NCBI GenBank assembly: GCA_963851265.1
Contig: CAWKNZ010000002.1
Location: 96,001-160,000, forward strand
Direction of reading: 5' to 3'
DNA: 64,000 bases
From: an uncultured Gemmatimonadales bacterium
GTDB lineage: Bacteria; Gemmatimonadota; Gemmatimonadetes; Gemmatimonadales; Gemmatimonadaceae
Below, one piece after another: positions 1,213 through 62,115 of this stretch; position 1 is the stretch's first letter, and the number at the start of each line of letters is the position of its first letter. The notes below the pieces were generated by a model. It was not told the DNA's origin. It saw only the letters and a program-made list of their open reading frames with translations, and did no database searches. A program made the position numbers and the translations under genes.

Positions 1213-2427
1213 TCACCACGCGCCGGTGTAGCCGGCGGTAACGCCGATGTTCTGCGAGCGGACGGTCGGGTCCTGCGTGCGGCTGCGGCGCGAGGCGCCC
1301 GCGCCGGCCCAGAACCCGGCGGCGATCGGGCGGCGCACGTCGGCGAACGAGGCGTTGGTCACGGTGCGGGGGCCGGGGCTCGTCGGCACGCGGCTCCAAG
1401 CCTGCAGAACGCCGAGGCGGACGAGCATGCCGCCGGGGGCGACGCGGCTGTACGCCGCCTCGGCCTGGTCGGTGGCGAGCACCTCGCCGACGCCGAGCAG
1501 CGGGGTGACGTCGCGCACGACGCGGACGGTCCACGCGGCGCCTAACGCTGACGCGCCGAGCTCCGCGCTGCCCGCCGGTGCGAGCGTCGGGGCGCGCCCG
1601 GGCGTGGTGTACGCGCCCGCGCCGGCGCGCAGGCGCAGCTGCGCGGCGCCGAACACGCGCGCGTCCCAGCCGAGCGCGGCCGATTCGGCGCTCAGCACGC
1701 TACCGCCCGTCTGTGTGCGGTGGCCCTCGAGCGTGACGCTCACGGCGGTGGCGCTCGCGAGCTGGCGCACGACGCTCAGCCGAGCGCGCGCGCTCGTACC
1801 GCTCGCGAGCGCGCTCGCGTCGTAGCGGATGCGGTCCAAACCCGCGTCGGCCGTGACCGTCGTCAGCTCGGTCGTGCGGTACGCGGCCGTGGCCTGCGCC
1901 GTGTAGGTGCGGGAGAGCGAGAGTGGCAGGAGGGGGAGCACGCCGCTCGCCGCGGCGGGCGCGCCCGGCGCGGGCCCGCCGGCGTCCGGGGCGTCGGTCG
2001 CCGCGGACCCGGTCGCGAAGCCCGAGCCCGCGGCGACGTCGCGCGACAGGCTGGTGCGCGCGGCGGCGCCCGCCCGCACGTCGAGCCGTGGCGTTAGGCG
2101 TGCGTCGGCGGCCGCCGACGCGCCGTACGTCGAGCGCGAGAGGTCGGGCGCGCCCTGAAACCGCTGCAGCTCGCCGTCCGCGGTCGCGGTGACGACCGCG
2201 CGGGCCGACCGGCGGGCGAGGGAGACTCCGACGCGCGCGCGCGATAGGACGTCGGCGCTGTCCGCGGCCGACTGGAAGCGCGGATTGCTGACGACCCCGG
2301 TCTCGCCCTCGGCCGTGAGGCCGACGCCGAGCGCGCGCGGCTGCGCCGCCGCGCGGGCGCCGGGTACGCCCGCGGCGAGCACGCCGGCGGCGACGGCGCG
2401 CGCGCCTGCGCGCGGCAAGGCGCGCAC
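1213..2427 (-). CDS. Outer-membrane beta-barrel protein of the EPS locus
   Basis: Signal peptide ending AAA-Q, alternating amphipathic beta-strands, C-terminal aromatic (GVTAGYTGAW); adjacent to OPX. Confidence 0.75.
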   Translation of the reverse strand: MRALPRAGARAVAAGVLAAGVPGARAAAQPRALGVGLTAEGETGVVSNPRFQSAADSADVLSRARVGVSLARRSARAVVTATADGELQRFQGAPDLSRSTYGASAAADARLTPRLDVRAGAAARTSLSRDVAAGSGFATGSAATDAPDAGGPAPGAPAAASGVLPLLPLSLSRTYTAQATAAYRTTELTTVTADAGLDRIRYDASALASGTSARARLSVVRQLASATAVSVTLEGHRTQTGGSVLSAESAALGWDARVFGAAQLRLRAGAGAYTTPGRAPTLAPAGSAELGASALGAAWTVRVVRDVTPLLGVGEVLATDQAEAAYSRVAPGGMLVRLGVLQAWSRVPTSPGPRTVTNASFADVRRPIAAGFWAGAGASRRSRTQDPTVRSQNIGVTAGYTGAW

Positions 2428-2428
2428 G

Positions 2429-4279
2429 TCAACGACCCTCGGCAGCGCCGGCGCTCGCGCGGGGCGCGGACGGCAGCGGCGGGCGGCCGGAGCCGGCGTC
2501 CTGGCGGACCGCCGCCTGGGGGCGCGTCGCCGTACCGCCGGAGGGCGTGTGCCCGCGCACGCCGGGCAGGATGCGCTCCAGCGCGGTCGGGTACTTGCCG
2601 CCGAACGTCAGGATCGTCGCCGCGAGGATCCGGAAGTCCACCGCGGCCGAGGCGTGGCGCACGTAGAGCAGGTCGTAGTGGATCCACTGGTGGAAGTCGC
2701 CGGTGCTGCGGTCCCGGCGGCACACCTGCCACAGTCCGGTGATGCCGGGGCGCACGGACAGGCGTCCGTGGCGCCACGGGATGCAGATCTGGTTCTCGCG
2801 GAACGGCGACGGGCGCGGGCCGACGAAGCTCATCTCGCCGCGCACGACGTTCCAGAGCTGTGGCAGCTCGTCGACGTTGAGCCGGCGCAACCAGGAGCCG
2901 ACGCGCGTCACGCGCGGGTCGCGGTCCATCTTGAACTGCGGGCCGTCCAGCTGCTGCGCGGCGGCGAGCGCCTTCTGCAGGGCGTCGGCGTCGGGCCGCA
3001 TGCTGCGGAACTTCCAGCAGCGGAACGCGACGCCGTCACGCCCTTCGCGCCGGTCGCCGTAGAAGATCGGGAAGCCCGAGTCGAGCGCGACGAGCACCGC
3101 GCACACGAGCATGACCGGCGAGAGGAGTACGAGGGCGGCGAGCGCCAGCACGGGTTCGACGGCCGTCTTGACCCGCGGGTAGGATGACGCGCGCGCCGGT
3201 GCGGACGGCGCCGGCGTGCCGCCGCGCGTCTCGCGCCGCTGTCCCTGCCCGCTCGGCACGAAGCCGCGCCCCGACTCGTCGCTGGCGACCACGCGGTGGC
3301 GCACCGTGGCGCCGCTCGCGACGCGGGCGCCGTCGGTGAGCAGGCACTGGGCGATGGTGGCGCCGCTCTCGACGTGCGCCCCGCGCGCGAGCAGCGCCGG
3401 GCCGACGACGAGCGCGCCTGCCTCGACGTGCACGTCGGCGGCGACCACCACCGGCCCGACGAAGCGCGCCGACGGATCGATGTGAACGCCACCGCCGACG
3501 ACGAGCGGGCCTTCGGTGACGCCGGCGACGTCGGACGTGCCGTCGCGACGCGGGGCGCCGCGACGCTCACCCCGCGCGTCGTCGACGAGCTGCACGATCC
3601 GTCGTTCGGCGAGTGCGAGCGCGCCGGCTTCGTCGCTCAGGTCGACGAGGCGGCCGTGGTAGGTCACGTCCTGGCTCGGCACGCCCTGCGCGGCGAGCGA
3701 CGCGCGCACCGCGGTGAGCGACGTCCACTCGGCGTCGCCGGCGACGAGCACGCAGGAGACCGGGACGCACGATGCGACGATGCCCGCGGGGAACGGCCAG
3801 GTGACGGGCTCGAAGTAGCGCTGCACGCGCCGGAGGCGGCCGTCGACGCCGGGCTGCACGAATTCCTTCGCGCCTAACGGAGCGGTTTCGAAGGCGAGCA
3901 GGTGCCGCAGCATGCGCGAGTCGCGCACGCGCGCCTCGACGAGCGGTCGCAGGTCGATGCCGTCGAGCGGGTAGCAGTCGGCCGCGACGATGAGCAGCGT
4001 GTCGGACGGGTCGAAGCGCGACAGCGGGTCGCGGAAGACCTCCGCGCCGACGACCGCGGCCAGTTGGGGCGCGGTGCGGCGCACCGCGGCGAGGTACCGC
4101 GGGCCCGCGTCGAAGCGCGGGAGCAGCAGCGGGGCGTGCTGCGTCACGTCGGACACGCGTTCCATGACTTCCTCAAGCACGGTGCCCGTGCCCGTCGGAA
4201 GCAGGAGGAGTGACGAGGCGCGATCGCCTTCGCCCACGTAGGGGAGACGCGCGTCGAGCAGGAGCGGGATGATGCGCAC
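2429..4279 (-). CDS. Priming phosphoglycosyltransferase (Bac_transf) fused to an N-terminal degenerate nucleotidyltransferase-like domain and LbH domain
   Basis: C-terminal KFRSM...[13 protein letters not shown]...[21 protein letters not shown]; central hexapeptide repeats. Confidence 0.85.
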
Positions 4280-4293
4280 GGTCGGGCTGGTCC

Positions 4294-61571: not shown

Positions 61572-61620
61572 GACGAGAGAGGGGGGCGGGGCCGCATCGG
61601 CCCCGCCCCCCTCTCTCGTC
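61572..61620 (+). terminator. 23-bp perfect-stem hairpin after the csp gene
   Basis: GACGAGAGAGGGGGGCGGGGCCG-CAT-CGGCCCCGCCCCCCTCTCTCGTC; no U-tract. Confidence 0.65.
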
Positions 61621-61672
61621 CGTGTACGTCGGCGCGCTCATGCAGGCCCGAACGGGGCGGTATATTCTCGCC

Positions 61673-62053
61673 ATGCCGTCCGGTTATGAGGGCTCGGAAT
61701 GGGGCGCGACGCGAGCCGGCGCGCACGGTGCGGTGACTCCCGACATGGCCCCCCGCGAACTCGCGGAGCGCCTGCGCGGACCGCGCCCGCCCACGGTGAT
61801 CGACGTGCGCGAACCGTGGGAGCACCGCGTCGCGCACATCCCGGGATCGCGACTCGTGCCACTCCGGTCGCTGCCGGCGGCGCTGTCGACGTTCGATCCG
61901 GGCGAAGAGTACGTGCTACTCTGCCACCACGGGGTGAGAAGTCTGGAAGGGGTACACCTGCTCCGGGGGCGAGGACTGACGAGAGTGGCGCACCTCGCGG
62001 GGGGGATCGACGCGTGGAGCCGGGAGGTGGACGGCGAAGTACCGAGGTACTAG
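61673..62053 (+). CDS. Rhodanese-like domain protein
   Basis: IDVREPWE..HIPG, CHHGVRS, LAGGIDAW...VPRY. Confidence 0.9.
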   Translation: MPSGYEGSEWGATRAGAHGAVTPDMAPRELAERLRGPRPPTVIDVREPWEHRVAHIPGSRLVPLRSLPAALSTFDPGEEYVLLCHHGVRSLEGVHLLRGRGLTRVAHLAGGIDAWSREVDGEVPRY

Positions 62054-62115
62054 CCGCGAGCTCCCAGCCCGGAGCGCGTGGTCCACTCGTTAGGCCTTAG
62101 AGGACTCGGACGCGG

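What the first reader, a model, noticed from the sequence alone, without database searches (positions are those of the whole stretch)
1540..62095. Dispersed, strongly over-represented heptamer GCCTAAC/GTTAGGC written into genes via rare TTA codons
Manual count: 28 copies (starts 1540, 2093, 3872, 7301, 10417, 12945, 15887, 18808, 19090, 20027, 20118, 20141, 20424, 23486, 25050, 26187, 30547, 37353, 40932, 41535, 44467, 44720, 49063, 49839, 51159, 52082, 53942, 62089); 24 extend to GCCTAACG. A rough zero-order estimate at about 75% GC gives about 5 heptamers and 2 octamers, and TA-containing words are normally depleted further in such genomes. 15 copies are TTA-GGC (Leu-Gly), 5 CCT-AAC (Pro-Asn), 1 CTA, 1 a TAA stop and 6 intergenic. 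Several frames are used, so the signal is at DNA level, and it covers most of the TTA codons I noticed. Orientation is 14:14, unlike strand-polarised Chi/KOPS. It occurs in both housekeeping and accessory genes. Inference: a genome-wide signal analogous to HIP1, DNA-uptake sequences, or a nucleoid-protein or methylation-maintained site.
Basis: partly seen in the sequence, partly recalled or inferred. Interest (0 to 1): 0.85.

Follow-up and report, generated by a model that had tools for sequence, protein, structure and literature searches.

The report
Genome-wide DNA word with recombination footprint
A soil bacterium of the Gemmatimonadaceae has written one exact short DNA word about 1,800 times into its genes and spacers against its own codon habits, and the DNA around each copy looks as if genetic exchange is focused there, much as with the self-tags that Neisseria and Haemophilus use to take up their own DNA.

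Summary
The window has 28 GCCTAAC/GTTAGGC against 2.3 expected. The 4.6-Mb genome has 1,762; coding DNA holds 1,282 against 73 after synonymous shuffling. 989 of 1,288 TTA codons are G-TTA-GGC. The word is [C/T/G]GCCTAAC[G/A] in every frame and in spacers, with no strand polarity.

It is hyper-abundant in 13 of 41 relatives, scattered through one order of Gemmatimonadota, and in 0 of 63 sampled genomes of other orders.

It is spelled like the integron attC core (R''/R'). Integron arrays in poor relatives use it. Integrase presence does not track abundance, and of 16 RYYYAAC words only this one is abundant.

New here: copies sit in a local trough of A/T at synonymous sites. GC-to-AT substitutions are 2.5-3.7-fold rarer within 200 bp of a lineage's own copies, while C-G changes and a control word stay nearly flat. 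This fits GC-biased gene conversion focused on the word.

Best reading (about 0.5): a DUS/USS-like tag that biases DNA exchange. The reader protein is unknown. Earlier notes of this scan reached the same analogy on this genome and on one other genome.

The parts
1540..1546 (+). word copy, antisense of G-TTA-GGC (Leu-Gly) in gene 1213-2427(-)
2093..2099 (-). word copy, read xGC-CTA-ACx in gene 1213-2427(-)
3872..3878 (+). word copy, G-TTA-GGC in sugar transferase gene 2429-4279(-)
7301..7307 (-). word copy, G-CCT-AAC (Pro-Asn) in glycosyltransferase gene 5864-7576(-)
10417..10423 (+). word copy, G-TTA-GGC in polysaccharide biosynthesis gene 10096-11628(-)
12945..12951 (-). word copy, G-CCT-AAC in gene 11877-13580(-)
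15887..15893 (+). word copy, G-TTA-GGC in GH44 gene 15443-17152(-); followed by A
18808..18814 (-). word copy, G-TTA-GGC in uxuA 18092-19144(+)
19090..19096 (-). word copy, G-TTA-GGC in uxuA 18092-19144(+)
20027..20033 (+). word copy, intergenic
20118..20147 (.). two copies in inverted orientation forming a hairpin just downstream of gene 20208-22319(-). This is the arrangement that DUS pairs take in Neisseria terminators; no T-run follows here.
   Evidence: -20.7 kcal/mol, z -2.76
20424..20430 (+). word copy, G-TTA-GGC in acyl-CoA synthetase-like gene 20208-22319(-)
23486..23492 (-). word copy, G-TTA-GGC in CHAT-domain gene 22710-25055(+)
25050..25056 (+). word copy supplying the GCC-TAA stop codon of gene 22710-25055(+)
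   Evidence: genome-wide 119 of 424 TAA stops are GCC-TAA-C
26187..26193 (-). word copy, G-TTA-GGC in gene 25081-26469(+)
30547..30553 (+). word copy, G-TTA-GGC in PALP/CBS gene 30253-31716(-)
37353..37359 (-). word copy, G-CCT-AAC in mutS 35205-37907(-)
40932..40938 (-). word copy, G-CCT-AAC in phosphodiesterase gene 40764-42431(-); followed by A
41535..41541 (+). word copy, G-TTA-GGC in gene 40764-42431(-); followed by T
44467..44473 (-). word copy, G-TTA-GGC in DUF456 gene 44192-44704(+); followed by A
44720..44726 (-). word copy, intergenic (between convergent genes)
49063..49069 (+). word copy, G-CCT-AAC in gene 47954-49705(+)
49839..49845 (-). word copy, intergenic
51159..51165 (+). word copy, G-TTA-GGC in gene 50205-51716(-)
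52082..52088 (+). word copy, G-TTA-GGC in gene 51716-52972(-)
53942..53948 (+). word copy, G-TTA-GGC in gene 53780-54415(-)
62089..62095 (-). word copy, intergenic

Best explanation
[C/T/G]GCCTAAC[G/A] is a protein-read DNA tag that biases genetic exchange between cells of these Gemmatimonadales, working like the DUS of Neisseriaceae and the USS of Pasteurellaceae. Proposed mechanism: a still unknown part of the DNA-import or recombination machinery prefers fragments that carry the word. Alleles with the word are therefore donated more often than alleles without it (molecular drive, perhaps helped by selection for conspecific DNA). The word then accumulates wherever it costs little: Leu-Gly and Pro-Asn dipeptides, Ala-stop gene ends and spacers. 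This happens even though it forces the rarest Leu codon. Because each imported tract must contain a copy, heteroduplex forms most often within a few hundred bases of a copy. GC-biased repair of that heteroduplex removes A/T at nearby synonymous sites. SHOWN: the over-representation, its DNA-level nature, its exactness, the lack of polarity, its patchy spread within one order, turnover by synonymous change with retention as good as the optimal codon pair, and a local, symmetric, GC-biased substitution footprint centred on copies in three species. INFERRED: that the footprint is gene conversion, that import is by transformation, and that a receptor reads the word.
For: (1) Strength and exactness. 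There are 1,762 copies against 96 by an order-2 Markov model, which the word itself inflates; every one-mismatch neighbour is at 0.15-2.2x its expectation.

(2) DNA-level reading. Occupancy is alike in both orientations: 7.9% of 12,657 Leu-Gly and 10.9% of 1,867 Pro-Asn dipeptides. The flank preferences are the same in all classes. Spacers between convergent genes hold 1.13 per kb against 0.39-0.55 per kb in the others. 119 of 424 TAA stops are GCC-TAA-C. A few inverted pairs form hairpins after genes.

(3) No polarity with GC skew or with the local majority gene strand.

(4) Spacing is near exponential (CV 1.07), but gaps under 300 bp are fewer than expected: 4.5% against 10.9%.

(5) Taxonomy. 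The same word tops the k-mer lists in genomes of 61-75% GC from three genera, while a poor relative (G006) has no other hyper-abundant word. 13 of 41 relatives exceed 1.5x the reversed-word control. In a phylum sample 8 of 201 do, all in two families, with graded levels of 0.4-3.9x inside one genus.

(6) Turnover. 35 of 85 and 43 of 78 aligned G000 copies are kept in two congeners, against 93 of 264 and 123 of 250 for the optimal G-CTC-GGC. Other rare-codon versions are kept in 0-3 of 10-23 cases; that count covers plus-strand genes only. The alternative states are synonymous Leu-Gly codons.

(7) Link to GC3. With the context fixed as G-Leu-GGC, the TTA share rises from 8.4% to 24.9% across gene GC3 quintiles, while TTA outside the word falls from 4.7 to 0.9 per 1,000 Leu.

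(8) Local footprint. With the word masked, A/T at third positions is 0.038 within 150 bp and returns to about 0.064 by 1.5 kb, while the control word stays flat at 0.063-0.065. The trough is symmetric. It is also seen around spacer copies and in non-coding DNA. It is replicated in G001, G004 and G008 and is weak in G012.

(9) Lineage-specific substitutions. GC-to-AT changes run at 0.020 / 0.018 / 0.017 within 200 bp of a lineage's own copies against 0.059 / 0.044 / 0.061 beyond 2 kb. C-G changes fall only 8-20%, and the control word is flat.

(10) General import genes are present in G000: ComEC, DprA, ComEA-like proteins, two secretins and nine pilin-like genes.

(11) In Neisseria, DUSs are linked to conversion fragments and are absent from recently acquired genes (PMC2397512, abstract and passages).
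Against: No reader was found. The ComP_DUS family gives only sub-threshold hits, with none in G000. Two orphan pilins and ComEC are conserved regardless of word abundance.

Competence has not been shown for this phylum, and I found no paper on it.

Only about six short inverted pairs that could form terminator-like hairpins turned up among the 46 close pairs listed for the genome, far fewer than in Neisseria.

One-mismatch variants are hardly raised, whereas I recall that DUS-1 classes are common in Neisseria.

After controlling for GC3, between-species synonymous identity is not clearly higher in word-rich genes (partial r 0.06 and 0.14).

GC-biased gene conversion is itself an inference here. 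A mosaic of imports could contribute, since C-G changes do rise 9-24% away from copies.

The exact identity with the integron core remains unexplained under this reading.

Gene calls come from my own simple caller, and parsimony is weak at this divergence.
Confidence: 0.5

Rival explanations
1. The word is a Chi-like recombination signal read by the AddAB-type helicase-nuclease. It would protect and activate broken or incoming double-stranded DNA that carries it, so it marks self DNA and focuses recombination.
For: G000 has an AddAB-like gene pair at C3:244.5-251.7 kb, and RecC was not found in 40 of 41 relatives. The density per orientation (about one per 5 kb) is close to what I recall for E. 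coli Chi. The word is non-palindromic and 7-9 bp long. Copies are recombination-type foci. Donor fragments that carry such a site could also be favoured, which would give drive.
Against: There is no orientation bias with GC skew or with the majority gene strand. The GC footprint is symmetric on both sides of the word in both coding orientations, whereas Chi acts to one side. As I recall, known Chi words are G-rich and fit codon usage rather than fight it. AddAB was not compared across relatives.
Confidence: 0.1
2. The word is read by the integron integrase, or by a related tyrosine recombinase, because it is the attC/attI R-box core. Dispersed copies would be secondary binding or nicking sites whose processing focuses repair and recombination, or docking sites for cassettes.
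For: GCCTAAC and GTTAGGC fit R'' = RYYYAAC and R' = GTTRRRY, and GCCTAAC is the R'' of attC(aadB) (PMC12901181 passages). In word-poor relatives the copies are attC ends of cassette arrays: pairs lie 83-129 bp apart and repeat every 0.5-1.3 kb, fold as imperfect hairpins, and one array lies next to an intI fragment. Both attC ends and dispersed copies are followed mostly by G or A, and A just before the word looked uncommon when I read the attC listings by eye, without a tally. Integrons are known in the phylum (PMC8618304 passage). G000 has about five attC-like pairs and an intI.
Against: intI passes its cut-off in 8 of 13 word-rich and 17 of 28 word-poor genomes, so there is no association. 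It is split in G000, fragmentary in G001 and G012, and not found in G002, G008 and G018. Only 1 of the 16 RYYYAAC words is abundant (18x against 0.4-2.2x), which is much stricter than the integrase consensus. Dispersed copies have no L box or partner arm. A site nicked in the recipient should be lost by conversion, not gained (inference).
Confidence: 0.1
3. The word is a HIP1-like site kept up by a DNA methyltransferase and its repair partner, or it is the binding site of a nucleoid or segregation protein that is selected at each position.
For: It is an exact, asymmetric 7-9 bp word of the size that Type IIG, IIL, III and BREX enzymes read. G000 has an intact 1,141-aa Eco57I/MmeI-like methylase next to an SNF2 helicase. 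One 45-kb desert lies around gidA-parAB-mnmE in G000 and is also sparse in two congeners.
Against: That methylase is found in 40 of 41 relatives with identities that track kinship (78% in the genus, 48-57% in the family, 38-42% in other families), whatever the word abundance. The other hsdM genes are in pieces. No N6_N4 methylase was found. Vsr occurs in 4 of 41 genomes, none of them word-rich. The parB region is not depleted in G012. About half the copies turn over between congeners. A binding site does not predict a GC-biased substitution trough reaching about 1 kb. Methylation itself could not be tested: only contigs of one soil run were on hand.
Confidence: 0.12
4. The word is a by-product of a context-specific mutation hotspot, for example two deaminations turning G-CTG-GGC into G-TTA-GGC. 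Or it is an A/T island selected wherever local DNA is most GC-rich. In either case no dedicated reader exists.
For: The only raised neighbour is the transition neighbour GCCCAAC (2.2x). CTG-GGC is scarce among Leu-Gly pairs: 1,408 against 9,407 CTC-GGC. Copies sit where A/T at third positions is lowest.
Against: The same flanked word arises in four frames, at stops and in spacers. It is kept as well as the optimal codon pair. The trough is also seen in G008 at 64% GC, where A/T is not scarce. A need for any A/T island would not fix one heptamer. A hotspot does not explain fewer GC-to-AT changes hundreds of bases away.
Confidence: 0.06

Closest known systems
DNA uptake sequences: DUS of Neisseriaceae (read by the minor pilin ComP) and USS of Pasteurellaceae
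   Same: Both are exact short asymmetric words present at hundreds to thousands of copies, on both strands equally. They are written into genes in the frames that cost least and are enriched after genes. They are shared by related species and patchy at higher rank. They are linked to recombination: in Neisseria, conversion fragments are enriched in DUS (PMC2397512); here there is a conversion-type footprint.
   Different: This is a different phylum with no known competence. The core is shorter (7 bp plus two soft flanks). The density is lower in this genome (0.38 per kb), though G012 has 6,360 octamer copies in about 5.1 Mb. Few terminator pairs exist. One-off variants are hardly raised. No ComP-family protein was found. 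No alternative word ('dialect') was seen in the one word-poor relative examined by k-mers (G006, 400 kb). The spelling is identical to the integron core. Uptake itself is untested.
Integron attC/attI core sites (R'' RYYYAAC, R' GTTRRRY) read by IntI
   Same: The heptamer is identical on both strands. The same order carries cassette arrays whose attC ends are this word.
   Different: Dispersed copies are solitary, lie in frame within ordinary genes, and lack L boxes and hairpin partners. Only one of the 16 consensus words is enriched. There is no link to intI presence.
HIP1 (GCGATCGC) of cyanobacteria
   Same: It is a hyper-abundant exact word written into genes against expectation, with an unknown reader (recalled).
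   Different: HIP1 is palindromic and has been tied to methyltransferases (recalled). This word is asymmetric, and no methylase tracking it was found.
Chi sites of RecBCD/AddAB
   Same: Chi is an asymmetric 5-8 bp word that is over-represented and focuses recombination (recalled).
   Different: There is no orientation bias and no one-sided footprint. This word is strongly counter to codon usage.

Membership tests
DNA uptake sequences (DUS/USS) | Short exact word hugely over-represented genome-wide on both strands | tested here: met
   1,762 copies (877/885). Coding DNA holds 1,282 against 72.7 after synonymous shuffle.
DNA uptake sequences (DUS/USS) | Competent cells preferentially take up DNA that carries the word | not testable with these tools
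   This needs an uptake or transformation competition assay.
DNA uptake sequences (DUS/USS) | DNA import machinery present (ComEC, DprA, ComEA, type IV pilus or secretin) | tested here: met
   It is also present in word-poor relatives (ComEC in 40 of 41), so it does not discriminate.
DNA uptake sequences (DUS/USS) | Specific receptor (ComP family in Neisseriaceae) | tested here: not met
   PF16732 gave no hit in G000. Only one hit passed the cut-off among 41 genomes, in a word-poor genome. The Pasteurellaceae receptor is unknown as well (recalled).
DNA uptake sequences (DUS/USS) | Association with recombination tracts | tested here: inconclusive
   A local GC-biased substitution trough is centred on copies. 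Tracts themselves were not mapped, because no population sample was on hand.
DNA uptake sequences (DUS/USS) | Frequent inverted pairs in terminators | tested here: inconclusive
   Only about six short inverted pairs that could form hairpins are among the 46 close pairs listed genome-wide; one is in the window at 20118-20147. Convergent-gene spacers are enriched at 1.13 per kb.
Integron attC site | R'' and R' boxes paired in an imperfect hairpin with L boxes and extrahelical bases | tested here: not met
   Flanks of dispersed copies carry no conserved sequence. Of the 1,750 gaps between neighbouring copies, 46 are 200 bp or less, and only about five of those pairs look attC-like.
Integron attC site | Core matches RYYYAAC / GTTRRRY | tested here: met
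   Consensus from PMC12901181 passages. The arrays in L079-L082 use it.
Integron attC site | Co-occurrence with an integron integrase | tested here: not met
   intI passes its cut-off in 8 of 13 word-rich and 17 of 28 word-poor genomes.
Chi site | Orientation bias with replication, and one-sided action | tested here: not met
Methylation-linked iterated word (HIP1-like) | A cognate methyltransferase whose presence tracks the word | tested here: not met
   The only intact candidate is conserved in 40 of 41 genomes. Modification of the word itself could not be tested.

The most novel reading that the evidence does not exclude
The import or recombination machinery of these Gemmatimonadales has been tuned to the integron core itself. 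Any integron cassette from any bacterium carries two copies of the tag in its attC. Such cells would therefore preferentially harvest the environmental cassette pool, and the tag would spread through their own chromosomes as a side effect of the same bias. That would couple natural transformation to integron gene capture, and it would give a third, independently evolved uptake-sequence system in a phylum where none is known. It would also be visible through a conversion footprint that could be used to find such tags elsewhere.
Probability: 0.12. Interest if true: 0.95.

Novelty: new variant of a known kind. Interest (0 to 1): 0.78.

Why it matters
Sequence-specific self-tags for DNA exchange are known, as I recall, from only two proteobacterial families. 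A third case in uncultured soil Gemmatimonadota would show that the strategy is more widespread.

It would give a handle on gene flow in a major soil phylum. It would also offer a purely computational signature for finding further cases: a hyper-abundant word together with a local GC-biased substitution trough.

The identity with the integron core raises a testable link between DNA import and cassette capture.

The graded levels within single genera give natural contrasts for finding the reader protein.

The case also shows how strong a non-coding force on codon choice can be: in the GC3-richest fifth of genes, a quarter of G-Leu-GGC sites use the rarest Leu codon.

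Tried and rejected
Replication polarity was rejected. There is no correlation with GC skew. Leu-Gly occupancy is 7.2% in co-oriented and 7.0% in anti-oriented genes.

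Exclusion from the origin region was tested. The single outlier desert (G000 C1:182,876-227,962; 45 kb, no copies, about 150 Leu-Gly dipeptides) holds gidA, parA, parB and mnmE. It is also sparse in the aligned parts of G001 and G004. The parB neighbourhood of G012 is not depleted, so this is not a general rule. Deserts go with lower GC3.

Between-species homogenisation was tested. The raw correlation of word density with synonymous identity (rho 0.40-0.44) vanishes after control for GC3. Identity around shared copies is only about 0.02 higher.

Parsimony dating of gains failed. For private copies the other two genomes rarely agree (2 of 15, 4 of 19, 4 of 27), so the divergence is too deep.

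Searches for a reader or writer by distribution over 41 relatives showed no pattern. These covered intI, RecC (1 of 41), ComEC (40 of 41), the Eco57I-like methylase (40 of 41), ComP_DUS, Vsr (4 of 41) and two orphan pilins. PF01555 was not found in G000.

No alternative word was found in a word-poor relative: none in 400 kb of G006.

Public reads gave nothing usable. One soil run held 0.16 of the sampled words, as short low-depth contigs only, so it gave no information on variants or modification.

Literature searches found no paper with the word outside integron or primer contexts, and none pairing Gemmatimonad* with 'uptake sequence'.

In one search the 'LG' label was wrong for minus-strand genes, and the control words were counted in plus-strand genes only.

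Full report
OBSERVATION. The window holds 28 GCCTAAC/GTTAGGC, 14 on each strand, at exactly the coordinates given. A hundred dinucleotide-preserving shuffles give 2.28 +/- 1.48, with a largest value of 6. The window is G000:C2:96,001-160,000 of a 4.60-Mb, 12-contig, 73% GC genome. Its MutS is 59-65% identical to those of the seven best-matching Gemmatimonadota/Gemmatimonadaceae MAGs and 53% to an eighth.

I called genes with a simple codon-statistics caller of my own: 3,617 genes, 88% coding. 24 of 28 copies are followed by G, and 15 of the 18 TTA codons in the window's genes lie in the word.

GENOME-WIDE. There are 1,762 copies (877 + / 885 -), and 1,762 of 1,794 GCCTAA are followed by C. The logo adds two soft flanks: the base before is C 54%, T 22%, G 19%, A 5%, and the base after is G 79%, A 14%. 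These flanks are the same in Leu-Gly, Pro-Asn, gene-edge and intergenic copies.

By class there are 989 G-TTA-GGC, 197 G-CCT-AAC, 72 CTA, 24 GTT-AGG, 294 intergenic and 186 at gene edges. 989 of 1,288 TTA codons and 119 of 424 TAA stops belong to the word. Shuffling synonymous codons within each gene gives 72.7 +/- 7.9 copies against 1,282 observed (30 replicates).

Occupancy is alike in the two orientations, at 7.9% of Leu-Gly and 10.9% of Pro-Asn dipeptides. There is no link to GC skew or to the local majority gene strand. Spacing is near exponential (mean 2,592 bp, CV 1.07), with a deficit of gaps under 300 bp: 4.5% against 10.9%. Spacers between convergent genes are richest at 1.13 per kb.

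All this shows a strand-symmetric signal that is read on the DNA.

RELATIVES. These counts are for GCCTAACG against the same letters read backwards. All five genomes of the genus are rich (9-34x). So are eight more genomes in eight other genera of two families, including G012 with 6,360 copies in about 5.1 Mb. That makes 13 of 41; the other 28 are at 0.77x or less.

In an even sample of the phylum, 8 of 201 genomes exceed 1.5x. All eight are in families f1 and f2, and one genus is graded from 0.4x to 3.9x. None of the 63 genomes of families f4-f12 exceeds 0.39x. These tallies include the unpublished genomes G011 (41-genome set) and G011, G085, G124 and G203 (201-genome set). None of them is among the rich genomes named here.

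On 110-480 kb fetched from each of five relatives, the same word tops an order-3 Markov ranking in G001, G004, G012 (61% GC) and G008 (64% GC). In word-poor G006 nothing stands out: the top z is about 10, against 25-51 for the word in the rich genomes. So the word does not depend on extreme GC content. The one poor relative examined does not simply use another word. G008 has a second raised word (see 'noticed in passing').

THE INTEGRON CORE. In word-poor relatives the few copies are clustered. Read out, they are the two ends of elements 83-129 bp long with conserved inner arms, repeated every 0.5-1.3 kb. These elements fold as imperfect hairpins with z of -3.0 and -3.3. One array lies next to an intI fragment. 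They are integron attC sites. The word fits R'' = RYYYAAC and R' = GTTRRRY, and GCCTAAC is the R'' of attC(aadB) (PMC12901181, passages). Integrons are on record for the phylum (PMC8618304, passage). G000 itself has about five attC-like pairs and an intI whose two parts lie 2 kb apart.

First, intI passes its cut-off in 8 of 13 rich and 17 of 28 poor genomes. Second, of the 16 RYYYAAC words only this one is abundant, at 18x against 0.4-2.2x. Third, dispersed copies have no partner arm. The identity of spelling remains unexplained.

EVOLUTION. I aligned G000 to about 290 kb of G001 and, at first, about 220 kb of G004, which are roughly 80% identical with third positions 71% identical; a further 80 kb of G004 sequence was added for the later counts. 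35 of 85 and 43 of 78 G000 copies are kept in the two congeners. The optimal-codon word G-CTC-GGC is kept in 93 of 264 and 123 of 250 cases. Other rare-codon versions are kept in 0-3 of 10-23 cases, counted in plus-strand genes only. Where a copy is missing, the partner mostly has a synonymous Leu-Gly pair.

Over 191 kb aligned three ways, 15 positions are shared by all three genomes, 39 by two, and 61 are private. The word is therefore both maintained and turning over through synonymous change. The divergence is too deep to date gains by parsimony.

NEW: A GC-BIASED FOOTPRINT. Word density rises with gene GC3. Leu-Gly occupancy goes from 2.7% to 14.1% and copies per kb from 0.13 to 0.55 across GC3 quintiles. 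TTA outside the word falls from 4.7 to 0.9 per 1,000 Leu over the same quintiles. With the context fixed as G-Leu-GGC, the TTA share rises from 8.4% to 24.9%.

The link is local. With the word masked, A/T at third codon positions is 0.038 within 150 bp of in-frame copies (n = 989). It is 0.048-0.056 out to 900 bp and about 0.064 by 1.5 kb. Around G-CTC-GGC (n = 3,728) it stays at 0.063-0.065. Neighbouring genes are affected as well: 0.069 against 0.084 within 300 bp.

The trough is symmetric for both coding orientations. It is present around intergenic and edge copies when compared with random spacer positions (0.070 and 0.059 against 0.092). It also shows in non-coding A/T, at 0.234 against 0.270. 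It is replicated in G001, G004 and G008, is weak in the very dense G012, and is absent around the 7 copies in G006.

Third-position changes were polarised by the two other congeners. GC-to-AT changes run at 0.020 / 0.018 / 0.017 within 200 bp of a lineage's own copies, against 0.059 / 0.044 / 0.061 beyond 2 kb. C-G changes drop only 8-20%, and a control word is flat.

This is the pattern expected if heteroduplex, and with it GC-biased repair, is concentrated within about 1 kb of copies. GC-biased gene conversion in bacteria is known to me from Lassalle et al. 2015; I recall that paper and saw only its reference entry. The rival reading is a mosaic of imports from A/T-richer, word-free donors. 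It predicts that C-G changes rise as much as GC-to-AT changes, which they do not. It may still contribute.

MECHANISM. A recombination focus that is gained rather than lost implies a bias in favour of the donor that carries it. That is how uptake sequences spread. In Neisseria, conversion fragments are enriched in DUS, and DUSs are absent from recent acquisitions (PMC2397512, abstract and passages). The general import genes are present in G000. I therefore favour a DUS/USS-like tag, with confidence of about 0.5.

A Chi-like role for the AddAB-type pair is weakened by the lack of polarity and by the two-sided footprint. Methylation-linked or nucleoid readings found no tracking enzyme, and they do not predict the footprint. 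Modification of the word itself could not be examined.

No reader was identified. ComP_DUS, two orphan pilins, ComEC, intI, RecC, Vsr and the one intact methylase show no distribution that follows the word.

STANDING. Earlier notes of this scan describe the same word on other windows of this genome and on one other genome. They draw the same DUS/USS analogy, and two of them note the integron-core spelling. I reached the integron identity independently. What I add:
- the GC3 dependence, the local symmetric trough and the GC-to-AT substitution gradient in three species;
- the strictness test against the RYYYAAC family;
- the absence of another word in a poor relative;
- the phylum-wide sample;
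- several negative distribution tests.

I found no paper that reports the word as a genomic signal or any uptake sequence in this phylum. Supplementary files were not consulted.

LIMITS. Gene calls are my own. The genomes are largely metagenome-assembled. Relatives were sampled at 110-480 kb each. Kin are not independent. Uptake, binding and modification are all untested.

Noticed in passing
L079 (G027:C95:1-20000), L080 (G025:C3), L081 (G027:C80), L082 (G027:C43): These are chromosomal integron cassette arrays in word-poor relatives. About 20 attC sites lie in 20 kb, each bounded by GCCTAAC ... GTTAGGC 83-129 bp apart, with conserved inner arms and cassettes of 0.5-1.3 kb. An intI fragment lies next to the L081 array.
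   Followed up: partly
G000:C6:3005-6044 (L141) and G000:C10:188.9-203.8 kb (L142): The genome's own integron integrase is in two parts: model positions 2-265 and 260-313 lie about 2 kb apart. About five attC-like pairs lie on C10 and at C6:1.6 kb. The 2-kb insert gave no Pfam hit in the frame I tried.
   Followed up: partly
G000:C1:182876-227962 (L138-L140): A 45-kb stretch has no copy of the word despite about 150 Leu-Gly dipeptides. It holds gidA/mnmG, parA, parB and mnmE, so it is the likely origin region. It has lower synonymous identity to both congeners (0.59-0.67 against 0.70-0.79 in the flanks). It is also sparse in G001 and G004 but not in G012.
   Followed up: partly
G000:C7:582086-585511 with its neighbour 579717-581996 (L198): An Eco57I/MmeI-like N6-adenine methylase of 1,141 aa sits next to an SNF2-type helicase. 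The methylase is found in 40 of 41 relatives with identities that track kinship. In many genomes the match carries one in-frame TGA or TAG, which could mean two genes, a frameshift or a recoding event.
   Followed up: no
whole genome G000: Other words are moderately over-represented: the AGCGNCT/AGNCGCT family at about 2x (for example AGGCGCT, 2,075 against 1,040), AGCGCTT at 2.7x and TGCGCGA at 1.4-2.2x. TGCGCGA and AGGCGCT also rank high in G006.
   Followed up: no
whole genome G000, coding DNA: There is a strong codon-pair bias at Leu-Gly: CTC-GGN 9,407 against CTG-GGN 1,408, although CTC:CTG is only 1.7:1 overall.
   Followed up: no
G008 (L154-L155, L177-L196; 437 kb): Besides the main word, a one-base variant GCCAAACG/CGTTTGGC is raised: 84 copies against 15.6 expected. 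As a heptamer (122 copies) it outnumbers the main word (63). It could be a second specificity or a coding effect.
   Followed up: no
G000:C7:771474-772495 (L201) and G000:C9:923-1858 (L202): Two Type I hsdM-like genes match their family in several different frames, so they are either frameshifted pseudogenes or carry assembly indels. The first lies beside hsdS, an HsdR N-terminal fragment, a GmrSD-like gene and IS3-type transposase parts.
   Followed up: no
G017:C519:7548-8486 (L137): This is the only RecC (Exonuc_V_gamma) match among the 41 relatives. It lies in a genome that is 80% complete and 4% contaminated, so it may be foreign DNA or a rare acquisition.
   Followed up: no
window 543-11628: A minus-strand polysaccharide gene cluster carries word copies like any other genes. 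It holds an export protein, a sugar transferase, hexapeptide-repeat transferases, a GT2 enzyme and a flippase-like gene.
   Followed up: no
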